NCBI GenBank assembly: GCA_977030845.1
Contig: OZ365118.1
Span: 14,694,001-14,758,000, forward strand
Source: Fimbriosthenelais zetlandica
Lineage: Eukaryota
DNA: 64,000 bases
Reading direction: 5' to 3'
Shown here: piece after piece, positions 9,001 through 15,000 of the stretch
Layout of the letters: every line of letters begins with the position of its first letter
Position numbering within the stretch: the first letter of the stretch is position 1
Program-made: the position numbers

Positions 9001-12000
9001 AAAAAAAAAGAAGAAAATGTTATATTAACTAAAGCATAGGAAGAGATTTTAATAAGCATTGTTAAAAAAAATTTCTGACCTTCGCACATTTCATTTGTTG
9101 TATCATATAGAAAACCTGCTGAACATGCGCACATATAGCTTCCTTCCGTATCAAGGCACGAGCTGCCACCTGAACACAGAGAAGTGTCCCCAATACACTC
9201 ATCTACGTCTGAAATAAAATCACTTTTATTTGGATTGTTCGTACTGAAGTATATAACTTCAAATACATACCGGGACCCCCTGCCCCCTGCCAATTACCTA
9301 GGTGTAAACCTGGAACACAGGTTTTACCTACGTGTAAAGGACTATTAAAATTATTGCTGATCTGTCACATATTTTTTGCAGATCTGTTACAGATCCGCCA
9401 CAGATCTATCCCTTATCTGTCACAGATCTGTCTGAACTGTCACATATCTATTGCCGATCTGTCACATATCTATTGCCGATCTGTCACAGATCTATTCCTG
9501 ATGATGATTTGTCACAGTTTTGTTGCTGCATTGTTGCTGATTTGTCACAGCTTTTTTGCTGCATTGTTGCTGATTTGTCACATATCTGTCGCTCATCTGA
9601 TCTGTCGCAGATGTGTCACAGTGTCAATCCGTCATTTATGATTTACTCCTTCTTGTAATATGCACTTGAATCCTGGATTGTGGGGATTAGTTTGTATAAA
9701 ACGACCAACTGTCTAAAGTGACCACTTCACCCAAGGGTGGTCGCTTTATACGGGTTAACCGTTTGACTGTACTCACTTGCACAAACAGTTCCAACGTAGT
9801 CATAGCCAGGAGCACAATTACACGTGAATCCATTAACCTCATCCACACACGTACTTCCTTGTGGACACACGTCTGAATCACACTCGTCAATTTCTGCCAA
9901 GAAAAAGGAATGTCCATGTGCTTAATGTTTATGCATCTGTCAACGTGCATCCTACCTCCCACCAACCTTAATTGTTAAACCTTTATTAACTGCGACGAAT
10001 TGTTGTCAGACTCAGACTGTGTTGGGAGGAACTTTTTTTTTTATTTTCTATGATAGTGTCTACAAATGATAGTGTCTACAAATGACAACCTCTAGTTGTT
10101 GAAGTCTCTCAGCAATGACTAACCTTCACACTCTTGATCTCCTGTATTATATTCAAAACCTGCATCACACATACACATAAATCCAGGTTCCATATCCACA
10201 CACGTACTCCCATCCAGGCAAGGGGAAGGGGACTCATCACACTCATCTACATCTGGAATTTAATATAAATACACAATAATTAATCGGCATAATTATGTAC
10301 ACAGTTACGGCTGGTCGACCTGGTACCAGCATAATGTGACTGGGTGAGGTATCATATGTTATGTGCCTGCGACATGGTCAGTCCCAGAGCATTGTACTTA
10401 CTTTCACATGCGTTACTGTCACCATTGTATTCTAGTCCATCCACAGTACAGTCACAGGTGTAGCCATCGCTTGTCGTCATACAATCACTCTCATCTGGGC
10501 AACTGTCTGTCTCTGCCAGGCACTCGTCCGTCACTGTTCAAACATATGAGTCATTGGTCAGTTCATGGACAGGGTGAAGGATCGGGTAAGGGGTTGGGGT
10601 TGTCAGGGTGGCAAAGTATGCGGCAAAAGTGGGGAGGGTGCCCCAGACTTGATAGATGGGGAACCCCCCTCCCCTACCTTCCGTGTGGATCTTCCCCTTA
10701 AATTTAGGGAGATTTTAGGGGGCAAATTAGTCTTCGAGGTCACAGTTCATGATACACTTCTTTGCTAAGTCGACCTCCATATAGGCTACATGTGTAAAAC
10801 TTTTCGATATTATTAGGACGCATGAAAAGCCTTTACGTCTGATGAAAAATACTTTGATTATGTTATCTGCAGTACGAGTATTTCCCTTTCAATGATTGAA
10901 TGGCATATTAAATGTGGTCATTGGATGTAGAAGGATTGGATAATGTCTTACCTTCACATACATCATCCTGTGTATTGTATGTGTAACCTGGACTAGTACA
11001 TTCACACTCTTCATTGGTTGTATCATATTGATAACCTGCTTCACACATACACACAAATCCAGGATCCATATCCATACACGTACTGCCATCCAGGCACGGG
11101 GAAGGGGACTCATTACACTCATTTATATCTGAAATTTAATACAATACAATAATAAATTACTGACACAAGTAGGCACTATAAATTTATAAAACAGTCCCAC
11201 TTTAAGCGACCAACTCCTTATAGAGACCTTGTATAGAGCATTGTACTTACTTTCACATGCGTTACTGTCAGCATTGTATTCTAGTCCCACCACAGTACAG
11301 TCACATGTGTGGCCATCGCTTGTCGTCATACAATCACTGTCGTCTGGGCAATTGTCTGTCTCTGCCAGGCACTCGTCGGTCACTGTTCAAACATGAGTCA
11401 TTGGTCAGTTCATGGACAGGGTGAAGGATCCGGTATAGGGGGCTGGGGGTTTAGGGTCAGAGTGGTATAAGGTATGTGGAAAAAGGGAGTTGGGGCTGCA
11501 GCCTTTCTGGTCCAATAATTACTACATATCTTTGCAACAAAATATGCATCTTCCTGAAAGATCGGGAACCCCCCACCCCTACCTTCCTGTGGATCCGCCC
11601 CTTTCAATGATTGAATGGCATATTAAATGTGGTCATTGGATGTAAAAGGATTGGATGATGTCTTACCTTCACATACATCATCCTGTGTATTGTATGTGTA
11701 ACCTGGACTAGTACATTCACACTCATCATTGGTTGTATCATATTGATAACCTGTTTCACACATACACATAAATCCGGGGTCCATATCCATACACGTACTG
11801 CCATCCAGGCACGGGGAAGGGGACTCATTACACTCATTTATATCTGAAATTTAATACAATACAATAATAAATTACTGACACAAGTAGGCACTATAAATTT
11901 ATAAAACAGTCCCACTTTAAGCGACCAACTCCTTATAGAGACCTTGTATAGAGCATTGTACTTACTTTCACATGCGTTACTGTCAGCATTGTATTCTAGT

Positions 12001-15000
12001 CCGTCCACAGTACAGTCACAGGTGTGGCCATCGTTTATCGTCATACAATCACTCTCATCTGGGCAATTGTCTGTCTCTGCCAGGCACACGTCGGTCACTG
12101 TTCAAACATGAGTCATTGGTCAGTTCAGCGACCGATGAAGGATCGGGAAGAGGAGAGTGGTTAGGGTGAGGGTGGTAAGGTTTATGGCAAAAGGGGACGA
12201 GGCTCCAGAAATTAATATATATCTGTTTGACCAAAAATTGATTAATACTCCCACCCACCTCCTGTGGATCCACTGTGCTGGACAAACTAGTCTTTGAGGT
12301 AACTGTTCATGATACACCTCTTTGCTAAGTTTCCCTTCATATATATGCATGTGTAAGACGTATTTGTAAGACTTTTCAACTTATCAATTATTAGCAACAA
12401 TGCTGTAAAACCTATACTTTGATAATGTTAACTGAACTATGTTCCTTTCAATGTTTGAATGACATATTGGATGTGGTAATTGGATGTTGAAGGATTGGAT
12501 GATGTCTTACCTTGACAGCTATTGTCCGGTTCATGGTACATGTAACCTGCATTATCACATTCACACGTTGATGATTGTACCTCATCCACACACGTACTCT
12601 GCTCAGGGCAAGTGTTTGATGCACAGTCATCAATGTCTGAAAGTAAGGAGATCAAAGTTATTAATATATTCTTCTATATAAATGCCCCTCCTGAAGCAAG
12701 TGACATCCTGCATGAATTACTTGAACGTTGAAGCTAAATTATTTGTTTTATGAACAAGTTGCTTCATTGTTTGCGTTTTGGTAACACCTTCCATGAAGTT
12801 TATTTCTACTCACTTTGACATTCAGTACCATCGTATTCAAAGCCAGGGGGACAATCACATGTGAACTCATTCACCTGATCCACACACGTACTTCCGTCTG
12901 GACAGTTGTTTGAAAGACACTCGTTTATATCTGCCAACAAAAAGAAAAAGAAATACCCATATAATTAATGGTTATAATTTAAACCTATTGTGATGGAAAT
13001 AGTCAAAGTTTATAAATAGTGAAGTTTATTTCTACTCACTTTGACATTCAGTACCATCGTATTCAAAGCCAGGAGGACAATCACATGTGAAATCATTCAC
13101 CTGATCCACACACGTACTTCCGTCTGGACAGTCGTTTGAAAGACACTCGTTTATATCTGCCAACAAAAAGAAAAAGAAATACCCATAGAATTAATGGTTA
13201 TAATTTAAACCTATTGTGATGGAAATAGAATTAACTTCTAGTTTGTTATTATCAGTATTTCAAGTGAATCATTAAAAATGAATTATTATGGACTCTTCAC
13301 CTTATATTTATCTACCCAACCCAAAATTTGTAAAATTAATATTCGGCTTAAGTATATGACTATTTATGATATTGAATCATTGGAATTGTGTATTAATTTT
13401 TTTCTGATAATACCTGAATTCCCAATAAATCAATTGATGATGGTACCTAAATTCTTAATAAATATTATCTATCATCACGTAGTATCTGACCTATGGATCA
13501 TTTAACATTCGATTTTGTTACCTTCACAGGTTGTATCGGTGGACGGAGCATACCCATCAAGACATTCACATATCACAGTGCTTCCGTACAGTTTACAGAC
13601 GGAAGAGACGGTATCACAGTTGTTCTGCTCTACAGTACAGTCACTTACAGCTGAAGGTACGACATATTAACATTGCAACACTTGTTTTTGCAAAAATGAA
13701 GTTTCACCGAGAAAGTATTTCATTTTGCGCTATATTTCAATTATTTTTAAATCACATAAATTTATTGATAAATGCGCATGAAGTGATGATCGACTTACTT
13801 TCACAAGTGTCACTTGGCGATTCACCCTCAGCACAAACACAGAGGTACGTCCCACTGATGATATTAACGCATGTTTCATCTTCTGCGCATTCGTTATCAT
13901 AACTGTTTACACATTCGTCATACCCTGAAATGAATTACTGACTTATACAGCCTATATGCAGTCCCAAAAAATGTTTTAGTTTCGAAGAATTTATTGCTAA
14001 AAGCAATTGCCGTTTGCACAATGGGAAGCACTTTTTTCAGGGTTGGTGTAATAAATTTTGAAAGATTTTCGTAGCAAAAACAAAATGCCATATTTCTTCT
14101 TGAGAAGAAATGGCATAATTAACTGGTTTTATTACTTACTTAGGCAAGGCATTATTGCATTCTCTTGGTCGTTTCTGTAGCCCTCTGCGCAGACACATTC
14201 CAGAGTTCCAATCCTGTTCTCACATGTACCGGTACCTCCCTGACCACAGTAATCCACTGCCTGCTCAGCACAATAATCTATGGCAGTGTCACATGTAGCA
14301 CCCGTGTATCCTGCCTTACAAATACACCCATCCTCTATATGACAGTACAATCCATTATCACCACAGGCACACGTCTCACTGCATGTAGTTCCATACATGC
14401 CTGGTTGGCAGGCTGAAATTTATAATAGGAATTAGAAGTTAGATAATTAGGTCATATAATAATAATAATGGATACTTGATATGGAGGGAAACCTCACCAT
14501 GGAATATACCGTATGGTAAAATGAGCCTAACATTTGAAATGGATGATTATAAATAGGAAAGCCTTGGTACCATAACAATAAGTTTTGTTTTTTTATTGGC
14601 TAAAGGTACTAAAATAGAGAGAATTGCTTTTATTGGCAAAAGCCACTATAAAACAGAGGCTATCTTTTATTGGCTTTATTTTACTCTCGTTGGCAGGAGG
14701 CAGGAGGCCTTGTTTTTTATGGAAGGTACTGTAAACAGAGCCTTGATTTTTTATGGAAGGTACTGTAAAGCAGGGCCTTGATTTTATTTGTGGAATGTAC
14801 TGTAAGACAGAGCCTTGCTGTTATTAGTAGAAGGTTAAAAGTACAGGTCTGAGATTGATACTGACCTCTACAGGTTACACCATCCTCCTGTAATGTCATG
14901 AAGTCAGGACAGGAACACTGGAAACCAGGCTCTAATTCTGTACACGAGTCACAGGCTGCCGGTGAGTTGGTACATTCAGTAATATCTGATGATAGGGGAA

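What the first reader, a model, noticed from the sequence alone, without database searches (positions are those of the whole stretch)
10885..12126. Duplicated EGF exons differ more than their flanking introns
Between the two 715-bp units I count 13 nucleotide differences in 309 exonic nt (8 amino-acid changes). In contrast there are 0 differences in the 122-nt intron 11129-11250/11844-11965 and only 2 in about 219 alignable intronic nt overall. This is the reverse of the usual pattern and suggests diversifying selection on the modules and/or intron-biased gene conversion, as described for some tandem-repeat recognition proteins.
Basis: partly seen in the sequence, partly recalled or inferred. 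Interest (0 to 1): 0.65.

Follow-up and report, generated by a model that had tools for sequence, protein, structure and literature searches.

The report
Patchy gene conversion between duplicated EGF exons
Two neighbouring copies of a two-exon EGF unit in an invertebrate gene are an old duplication that was later partly homogenised, which left two short older patches inside the exons, so this is an ordinary mosaic and not a sign of selection for protein diversity.

Summary
The counts are right. At offset 715, block 10884-11412 has 15 differences: 13 in 309 exonic nt (8 amino-acid changes) and 2 in the flanking intron. Intron 11129-11250 is identical, 122/122. Fisher p=0.031.

The contrast is fragile:
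The rest of the intron (11413-11598) aligns with gaps and has 25 mismatches in 142 nt. Over the whole unit, introns (27/360) are not less diverged than exons (13/309).
- All 13 exonic differences lie in two patches, 11010-11064 and 11288-11373. No difference lies in the rest of the two exons.
- dN/dS is 0.42. Synonymous divergence (0.079) is itself about 9 times the proximal intron value.
- Inside the patches pS is 0.167, matching the distal intron at 0.176.
- A third unit, u0, is as close to u1 and u2 in exon B as they are to each other, but far from both in exon A and intron AB.

Best reading: an old tandem duplication, later homogenised in patches by gene conversion, with exons under ordinary purifying selection. 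Diversifying selection is not supported. The same signature is described for primate L/M opsin genes.

The parts
10884..11598 (-). Tandem unit u1: donor-side flank, exon A1, intron AB, exon B1 and the inter-unit intron
   Evidence: Offset-715 identity. Self-BLASTN 10884-11487 against 11599-12195, 93.9%. Gapped alignment runs to the tail motif at 11598/12275.
11599..12275 (-). Tandem unit u2. It is shorter than u1 because of indels in its distal intron.
   Evidence: The homology ends at the shared motif CCTGTGGATCC before 12276.
10952..11128 (-). Exon A1 (copy A2 at 11667-11843). An EGF module with 8 Cys, 177 nt, phase 1-1.
   Evidence: AG/GT boundaries and open frame. Pfam EGF 23.6 and 27.7 bits against a cut-off of 21.5. 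Best PDB matches are Notch1 EGF repeats, E=1.8e-12.
11251..11382 (-). Exon B1 (copy B2 at 11966-12097). A six-Cys EGF-like module, 132 nt, phase 1-1.
   Evidence: Boundaries. Pfam EGF_CA 18.8 bits, below the cut-off of 27, for B1 and no match for B2. Weak PDB match to NELL1 EGF, E=0.002.
11129..11250 (-). Intron AB of u1, identical to 11844-11965 in u2
   Evidence: 122 of 122 identical. The central 76 nt do not align with u0's intron: 45 of 75 aligned columns differ. No Rfam match. Fold z-score -1.46.
11010..11064 (-). Divergence patch 1, inside exon A: 5 differences in 55 nt. The u2 counterpart is 11725-11779.
   Evidence: In the codons it touches, pS=0.197 and pN=0.064.
11288..11373 (-). Divergence patch 2, inside exon B: 8 differences in 86 nt. 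The u2 counterpart is 12003-12088.
   Evidence: pS=0.149 and pN=0.078. The three units are about equidistant here: unique sites u0 4, u1 4, u2 3, and one site where all three differ.
11413..11598 (-). Distal part of the inter-unit intron, not homogenised. The u2 counterpart is 12128-12275.
   Evidence: 25 mismatches in 142 aligned nt, in 15 aligned blocks, with 44 nt of u1 and 6 nt of u2 unaligned.
10124..10533 (-). Older unit u0, with exon A0 10124-10252 and exon B0 10402-10533. It serves here as a third copy.
   Evidence: B0 differs from B1 and B2 about as much as those differ from each other (pS 0.14 and 0.08; pN 0.053 and 0.058).
12794..13228 (-). Independent 226-bp tandem duplicate of one EGF exon (C1 12814-12930, C2 13040-13156). 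Used as a replicate.
   Evidence: TRF period 226, 98% matches. 3 differences in 117 exonic nt and 1 in 92 intronic nt. pS=0.046 and pN=0.022.

Best explanation
The region lies in a long array of EGF-module exons (minus strand, about 7.7-16.7 kb) in an invertebrate gene. A two-exon unit of about 715 bp was duplicated in tandem long ago. The age shows in the part of the intron that was not homogenised, which has about 18% mismatches and many indels. Later, non-allelic gene conversion or unequal exchange between the misaligned neighbouring units homogenised most of the left 529 nt, both intron and exon. This was either several events or one event with a discontinuous tract. Two short patches of 55 and 86 nt, lying inside exons A and B, kept the older divergence. 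Within those patches the exons evolved as ordinary constrained coding sequence, with omega about 0.4.

The 'exons differ more than introns' contrast therefore compares old patches with young background. It is not a difference in evolutionary rate.

Shown:
- the tandem homology over the whole unit;
- the three levels of divergence;
- synonymous divergence in the patches equal to that of the old intron;
- incongruent relationships with the third unit.

Inferred:
- that the homogenising process was gene conversion;
- its number of events.

Whether the patches survived by chance or because selection removes conversions that erase differences between modules is not resolved.
For: 1. Three levels of divergence with sharp borders. 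The background has 2 differences in 388 nt (529 minus 55 minus 86). The two patches have 13 in 141 nt. The distal intron has 25 in 142 nt plus indels.
2. The longest identical run, 223 nt (11065-11287), is longer than expected for 15 randomly placed differences, p=0.0036.
3. No difference lies in the exonic sequence outside the patches (one search gives 0 differences over 159 exonic sites outside them), so exon sequence is homogenised too.
4. Patch pS=0.167 (4.5 of 27 sites) against distal intron 0.176 (25/142). Patch pN=0.073.
5. Three-copy site patterns differ along the unit. In the exon A core, 16 sites are unique to u0 and 4 to u1 or u2. In exon B the counts are 4 and 7 (Fisher p=0.023). 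Pooling the first 30 nt of intron AB with the exon A core (25:4) against exon B with 11413-11487 (11:20) gives p=7e-5.
6. The same direction appears in the independent C1/C2 pair, 3/117 against 1/92 with omega 0.47.
7. It also appears in U3 against u1, exon 17/57 against donor-side flank 7/67, p=0.011.
8. The signature 'exon divergence above intron, both dS and dN above intron, dN not above dS' is what Hiwatashi et al. report for gibbon L/M opsins. They attribute it to gene conversion plus purifying selection against conversion in exons (PMC3213168, passages read; review PMC3924837, passages read).
Against: - The patch borders were drawn from the differences themselves, so patch pS is biased upward and its match with the distal intron is only a consistency check.
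- The single change-point is not significant on its own (permutation p=0.17).
- Within each stratum the exon excess keeps its direction although it is not significant: left 5/214 against 2/190, p=0.45; right 8/95 against 0/30, p=0.20.
- The 46 intronic nt adjoining exon B are invariant in all three units, while 12 of 132 exon sites vary (p=0.038). That could mean a real exon excess or splice-signal constraint.
- Unconverted patches of 55 and 86 nt between converted stretches of 126, 223 and 39 nt require several events or patchy repair.
- No second genome, allele or read set was available, so conversion was not observed directly.
Confidence: 0.55

Rival explanations
1. Diversifying (positive) selection on the EGF modules after a recent duplication or complete homogenisation. 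On this reading the exons accumulated adaptive amino-acid changes faster than the neutral intron.
For: 13/309 against 2/218, p=0.031. 8 amino-acid differences, some radical: E/V at the Ca-binding motif, V/D and T/I. The exon excess has the same direction in the C1/C2 pair. Omega=1 is not formally rejected.
Against: Omega is 0.42 overall and below 1 in each of exons A and B and the C pair. 4.5 synonymous differences were seen where about 0.5 are expected at the intron rate, P=0.002. Selection on protein sequence does not raise synonymous divergence. All differences are confined to two patches.
Confidence: 0.07
2. Input aimed at exons from other EGF paralogues. After a recent homogenisation, short ectopic conversions from diverged EGF exons elsewhere in the genome copied clustered changes, synonymous and non-synonymous alike, into the exons. 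Only exons share homology with those donors.
For: Both site classes are raised. Four pairs of differences lie within 3 nt, p=0.037. For three of the four pairs, comparison with u0 puts both members on the same branch, and the fourth pair includes a site where all three units differ. Transitions to transversions are 7:6 (my count).
Against: No donor was found in the window. 15-mers centred on each of the 26 alleles, with up to 1 mismatch, matched only u0, and there only the shared allele, taken as ancestral. Derived alleles alternate between u1 and u2 along exon B instead of forming one tract. The rest of the genome could not be searched.
Confidence: 0.12
3. Assembly or polishing artefact. The two units are partly collapsed, chimeric between haplotypes, or were homogenised by read mis-mapping during polishing, so that the identical stretches or the differences are not real paralogous states.
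For: Near-identical tandem repeats of 0.7 kb are a known weak point of assemblies (general knowledge). Perfect identity over 223 nt sits next to patches with 9% divergence.
Against: The units differ by many indels and substitutions in the distal intron and have a unique junction. All four exon copies keep open frames and splice sites. The window has no N. No reads were available to test this.
Confidence: 0.1
4. Chance, combined with constraint on splice-proximal intron sequence. On this reading the block is uniformly young, the exon excess is a sampling accident, and the flanking intron is kept by splicing signals.
For: p is only 0.031 before any correction for post-hoc choice, and 0.13 after collapsing paired differences. 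The 16+30 nt adjoining exon B are invariant in three units, while 22 of 65 sites vary further out, p=1.4e-6. The 67-nt donor-side flank is 90% conserved in U3.
Against: The middle of intron AB is identical between u1 and u2 but does not align with u0, so it is not under long-term constraint. Run-length test p=0.0036. No RNA family or unusually stable fold was found in the introns.
Confidence: 0.1

Closest known systems
Primate L/M (red/green) opsin tandem paralogues: introns homogenised by gene conversion, central exons kept divergent (PMC3213168, passages read; review PMC3924837, passages read)
   Same: These are tandem paralogues in which exon divergence exceeds intron divergence. Synonymous and non-synonymous divergence both exceed intron divergence, and dN is not above dS. 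Exon and intron sequences give different relationships. There is a peak of divergence inside an exon with low divergence in the flanking intron.
   Different: Here the copies are repeated exons within one gene, not two genes. There are only 13 differences, no population or cross-species data, no known functional sites, and much of the exon sequence is homogenised too. Selection against conversion is therefore not shown here. The opsin figures held in that paper's Additional file 1 were not seen, because supplements are closed.
Accelerated evolution of the coding regions of snake-venom toxin genes, with conserved introns (three-finger toxins, PMC2474615, abstract and passages read; PLA2 and other papers seen only in the listing)
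   Same: Intron segments are highly similar among family members, while exon segments differ.
   Different: That class is attributed to accelerated change or segment switching in exons. Here omega is about 0.4 and synonymous sites are raised as well, so the defining feature is not met. Nothing marks this gene as a toxin.
Islands of divergence that persist under gene conversion in duplicated genes (GOT1 paralogues of Tigriopus, PMC3728101; mosaic divergence in tandem HMA4 paralogues, bioRxiv 10.1101/2025.10.29.685298; for both only the start of the abstract in the listing was seen)
   Same: Divergence is mosaic between tandem or duplicated copies, with short diverged islands in a homogenised background.
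   Different: Those studies rest on several taxa or on modelling. Here there is a single assembly.

Membership tests
EGF-like domain (Pfam PF00008 / PF07645 calcium-binding EGF) | Profile score at or above Pfam's gathering cut-off | tested here: met
   Exon A1 scores 23.6 bits and A2 27.7 bits against PF00008, cut-off 21.5. EGF_CA scores of 25.7 and 25.5 are just below its cut-off of 27. Best PDB matches are Notch1 EGF repeats, E=1.8e-12.
EGF-like domain (Pfam PF00008 / PF07645 calcium-binding EGF) | The same test for exon B | tested here: inconclusive
   B1 scores 18.8 bits on EGF_CA, below 27. B2 has no family at E up to 0.01. Six Cys and the T-D-E-C start are present in B1, and B2 has V in place of that E. 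Weak PDB match to NELL1 EGF, E=0.002.
EGF-like domain (Pfam PF00008 / PF07645 calcium-binding EGF) | One module per symmetric phase 1-1 exon. This is recalled as typical of EGF exons and is not a formal criterion. | tested here: met
   A (177 nt), B (132), A0 (129), U3 (126) and C (117) are all multiples of 3, with a split codon at each end and AG/GT boundaries.
Opsin-type pattern: gene conversion homogenises non-coding sequence while exons stay divergent | Exon divergence exceeds intron divergence between the paralogous copies | tested here: inconclusive
   Met in the 529-nt block, 13/309 against 2/218, p=0.031. Not met over the whole unit, 13/309 against 27/360.
Opsin-type pattern: gene conversion homogenises non-coding sequence while exons stay divergent | Synonymous and non-synonymous divergence both exceed (homogenised) intron divergence, and dN is not above dS | tested here: met
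   pS 0.079 against 0.009, p=0.017. pN 0.035 against 0.009, p=0.11, so the direction is met but not significant. Omega is 0.42.
Opsin-type pattern: gene conversion homogenises non-coding sequence while exons stay divergent | Different parts of the sequence give incongruent relationships among copies | tested here: met
   Three-copy site patterns differ between the exon A/intron AB part and the exon B/distal intron part, p=0.023 and 7e-5. The cross-species form of the test was not possible.
Opsin-type pattern: gene conversion homogenises non-coding sequence while exons stay divergent | Purifying selection against conversion in exons: low within-copy polymorphism and a high divergence-to-polymorphism ratio at synonymous sites | not testable with these tools
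   This needs population samples. Only one assembly was available.
Accelerated or diversifying evolution of exons (venom-toxin type) | dN/dS above 1, with synonymous divergence no higher than intron divergence | tested here: not met
   Omega is 0.42 overall (0.34, 0.53 and 0.47 for A, B and C). Synonymous divergence is 8.6 times the proximal intron value.

The most novel reading that the evidence does not exclude
The exon patches are not leftovers but products of a diversifying mechanism aimed at exons. On this reading, short templated conversions from a dispersed library of EGF paralogues, or selection that actively blocks homogenisation of module-specific residues, keep neighbouring EGF modules of an invertebrate extracellular protein different while the surrounding DNA is continually homogenised. 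The recurring exon excess in four comparisons inside this one gene would then be the footprint of a general process. The four are u1/u2, C1/C2, U3/u1, and exon B against its flanks in three units.
Probability: 0.1. Interest if true: 0.6.

Novelty: new member of a known kind. Interest (0 to 1): 0.25.

Why it matters
It is mainly a caution. A reversed exon/intron contrast between tandem repeats reads like positive selection, but here it comes from comparing stretches of different age after patchy gene conversion. Synonymous sites and a third copy are enough to tell the two apart. For the gene itself, it shows that this EGF array is still undergoing concerted evolution at the scale of 50-250 nt. 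If the exon patches turned out to be protected by selection, they would point to the residues that distinguish neighbouring EGF modules. One of these removes a calcium-ligand glutamate in B2.

Tried and rejected
- Mutation bias: exons are richer in GC (0.45 against 0.34) and CpG (8 against 1). Only 2 of the 13 exonic differences are CpG transitions (my reading), which is too few to explain an excess of about 9-fold.
- Functional RNA in the conserved introns: Rfam at gathering thresholds found 0 matches in the whole window. Fold z-scores were -1.46 for intron AB and -0.48 for the inter-unit intron 11383-11666.
- Repeat or transposon origin of intron AB: BLASTN of the three intron pieces against the window found only the unit copies themselves.
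- In-window donors for the derived alleles: none apart from u0.
- Relatives of the gene:
  - The search for homologous proteins with exon A1 (longer proteins) found 1 candidate and none scoring.
  - The representative library gave 674 proteins at E up to 0.001. All 150 listed were generic multi-EGF matches at 33-51% identity, mostly to the EGF core only.
- TRF does not list the 715-bp repeat because its longest period is 500.
- Pfam on 86 of the 129 minus-strand stop-to-stop ORFs of 40 aa or more in 1-24000 gave 8 with EGF-type families and one chance-level hit (Baculo_p48, 19.4 bits, below its cut-off of 25). The 43 ORFs left out overlapped exons already scanned or were other frames of the same stretch.
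All searches were exon by exon, and split codons were dropped from the dN/dS counts.

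
Full report
**Setting.** The window has no N. Its GC content is 0.34-0.50 per 2 kb. On the minus strand, from about 16.7 kb down to 7.7 kb, lies a run of short Cys-rich open frames. Pfam recognises only EGF-type families in them:
- 9 of 12 exon translations scored.
- 8 of 86 scanned ORFs scored. I scanned 86 of the 129 such ORFs in 1-24000. The other 43 overlapped exons already scanned or were other frames of the same stretch.

I do not take the contig for human. The genes are compact. A RhoGAP exon at 61157-61312 finds ARHGAP26/Graf proteins of invertebrates as its best named matches (Elysia chlorotica, Caenorhabditis, Timema, Lingula, Patella, Octopus). 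No listed protein is more than 86% identical to it.

**The observation.**
- At offset 715, 512 of 527 positions match over 10885-11411. Neighbouring offsets give 113-148 matches.
- The ungapped block is 10884-11412.
- Exons on the minus strand are A1 10952-11128 and B1 11251-11382, with copies A2 11667-11843 and B2 11966-12097. Each has AG and GT boundaries and is phase 1-1.
- The 15 differences fall as 5 in exon A, 8 in exon B and 2 in the intron (10930, 10942).
- Eight amino acids differ.
- The 122-nt intron is identical in the two units.
- Fisher's test gives p=0.031.

**Where the contrast breaks down.**
   - BLASTN extends the alignment to 11487/12195 with 30 mismatches.
   - A gapped alignment of 11413-11598 with 12128-12275 gives 25 mismatches in 142 aligned nt and many indels.
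   - Over the whole unit the intron has 27/360 differences and the exons 13/309. That is the usual direction.
2. The exonic differences are not spread over the exons.
   - All 13 lie in 11010-11064 and 11288-11373.
   - No difference lies in the rest of the two exons. One search counts 0 differences over 159 exonic sites outside the patch codons.
   - The longest identical run, 223 nt, crosses from exon A through the intron into exon B. It is longer than chance allows, p=0.0036.
   - A single change-point at 11287 fits the 15 differences as well as the exon/intron partition does, -65.06 against -65.30.
3. Four pairs of differences lie within 3 nt of each other (p=0.037). Counting each pair as one event brings the Fisher test to p=0.13.

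**Selection.**
- Nei-Gojobori counts give 4.5 synonymous differences on 57 sites and 8.5 non-synonymous on 246. This is pS 0.079, pN 0.035 and omega 0.42 to 0.44.
- Omega is 0.34 in exon A and 0.53 in exon B.
- Synonymous divergence exceeds the proximal intron's 0.009: Fisher p=0.017; Poisson P(4 or more)=0.002. Selection on amino acids cannot raise synonymous divergence, so the excess in the exons is not a protein-level effect.
- With so few differences, omega=1 cannot be rejected (P 0.08-0.22). There is no support for omega above 1.
- Inside the two patches pS is 0.167 and pN 0.073. The non-homogenised distal intron stands at 0.176. The patch borders were set by the data, so this agreement is only a consistency check. 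It is what old, unconverted and ordinarily constrained coding sequence would look like.

**A third copy.** Unit u0 (exon A0 10124-10252, exon B0 10402-10533) aligns with both units. The number of sites unique to each unit changes along the unit:

| Segment | u0 | u1 | u2 | all three differ |
|---|---|---|---|---|
| Exon A core | 16 | 1 | 3 | 1 |
| First 30 nt of intron AB | 9 | 0 | 0 | 0 |
| Middle of intron AB (does not align; 45 of 75 columns differ) | 45 | 0 | 0 | 0 |
| Exon B | 4 | 4 | 3 | 1 |
| 11413-11487 | 7 | 4 | 9 | 2 |

- The heterogeneity is significant: p=0.023 for exon A against exon B, and 7e-5 pooled.
- In exon B and to its right the three units are about equally related. To its left, u1 and u2 are near-identical and u0 is remote. 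One tree cannot describe the unit, which is the mark of recombination or gene conversion.
- Taking u0 as the older state, derived alleles sit on both u1 and u2 and alternate along exon B.

**Replicates inside the gene.**
- The 226-bp tandem pair C1/C2 has 3 differences in 117 exonic nt and 1 in 92 intronic nt, with omega 0.47. Pooled with u1/u2 this gives 16/426 against 3/310, p=0.019.
- U3 (exon 12511-12636) differs from u1 at 17 of 57 exonic nt but at only 7 of 67 nt of the donor-side flank, p=0.011.
- The 16+30 intronic nt adjoining exon B are invariant in three units, while 12 of 132 exon sites vary, p=0.038.

These results run against a pure 'old patch' account. They keep open either constraint on splice-proximal intron sequence or a real tendency of exons to stay or become different. 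I report them as unresolved.

**Mechanism.** The most economical history has three steps:
1. An old tandem duplication of the whole unit. Homology runs to a shared tail motif at 11598/12275, and the u1/u2 junction lacks about 165-190 nt that the u0/u1 and u2/U3 junctions carry.
2. Later non-allelic gene conversion between the neighbouring units over 10884-11412, in several events or with a discontinuous tract. That patchy mismatch repair can give discontinuous tracts is general knowledge and was not tested here.
3. Ordinary purifying selection on the exons throughout.

The gibbon L/M opsin study reports the same signature: exons more diverged than introns, both dS and dN above the intron value, and dN not above dS. 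Its authors explain it by conversion plus selection against conversion in exons (PMC3213168, passages; review PMC3924837, passages). The selection part cannot be tested on a single assembly.

**Rivals.**
- Diversifying selection is disfavoured by the synonymous sites.
- Conversion from other EGF paralogues aimed at exons would also raise both site classes and would fit the paired differences. No donor lies in the window, and the genome could not be searched.
- An assembly or polishing artefact cannot be excluded without reads. The units do differ by many indels, and all four exon copies are intact.
- A functional RNA or a repeat in the introns found no support.
- CpG decay accounts for only 2 of the 13 differences.

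**Verdict.** The pattern is best read as mosaic concerted evolution of tandem EGF exons. This is a known kind of event in an uncharacterised gene.

**Unchecked.**
- Reads, alleles, orthologues and the rest of the genome could not be examined.
- The closed collections (metagenome contigs, viral contigs) were not searched.
- Supplementary tables of the papers cited were not seen.

Noticed in passing
10952-10999 and 11667-11714 (exon A extension); compare A0 10124-10252 and U3 12511-12636: Exon A of u1 and u2 is 48 nt longer at its 3' end than A0 and the similar exon near 9.1 kb. At the old donor position G|GT has become T|GT, and the frame runs on to a new GTAAGA donor. This adds a second 'C-x-C..G-Y-x-Y..C' half-module, giving 8 Cys. 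The extension and the 67-nt intron flank after it resemble the 3' end and flank of the U3 exon, so exon A looks chimeric.
   Followed up: partly
12088 (B2), counterpart 11373 (B1): B2 has Val where B1 and B0 have the Glu of the T-D-E-C start, which I recall as a calcium-ligand position of cbEGF. Pfam EGF_CA scores B1 and B0 weakly and does not score B2 at all.
   Followed up: partly
11235-11250 and 11383-11412, with counterparts in u0 and u2: The 16 nt after the donor and the 30 nt before the acceptor of exon B are identical in all three units (0 variable sites in 46). Just beyond them 22 of 65 sites vary, and 12 of 132 vary in the exon itself. This suggests splice-signal constraint or a three-way conversion tract.
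   Followed up: partly
10884-10951, 11599-11666, 12444-12510: A 67-68-nt intron segment just downstream of the donor is 90-97% conserved among u1, u2 and U3, although the U3 exon is only about 70% identical to exon A there. It is absent after A0. It might be a splicing element. The fold of the intron that holds it is not unusual.
   Followed up: partly
11061/11064, 11288/11289, 11319/11322, 11339/11342: Four pairs of differences lie 1-3 nt apart. For three pairs, comparison with u0 puts both members on the same unit, and the 11061/11064 pair includes a site where all three units differ. They may be multi-nucleotide events or very short conversion patches.
   Followed up: partly
12794-13228: A 226-bp tandem duplicate of a single EGF exon with part of its introns, 98% identical. 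It has 3 exonic differences and 1 intronic.
   Followed up: yes
48630-48923 and 61127-61435 (+ strand); 46228-47492 (- strand): An ARHGAP26/Graf-type RhoGAP gene lies on the + strand; one exon was confirmed, and I recognised the BAR-like N-terminal ORF from memory. On the minus strand are Cys-rich ORFs that I recall as resembling ZNF330/NOA36, which I did not test.
   Followed up: partly
29405-29624; 39728-39999; 18364-18411; 25044-25096; 41568-41624: Several simple repeats: a 36-nt minisatellite of 6.1 copies at 96%, a 51/101-nt repeat, two long C-rich runs, and (CATT)14.
   Followed up: no
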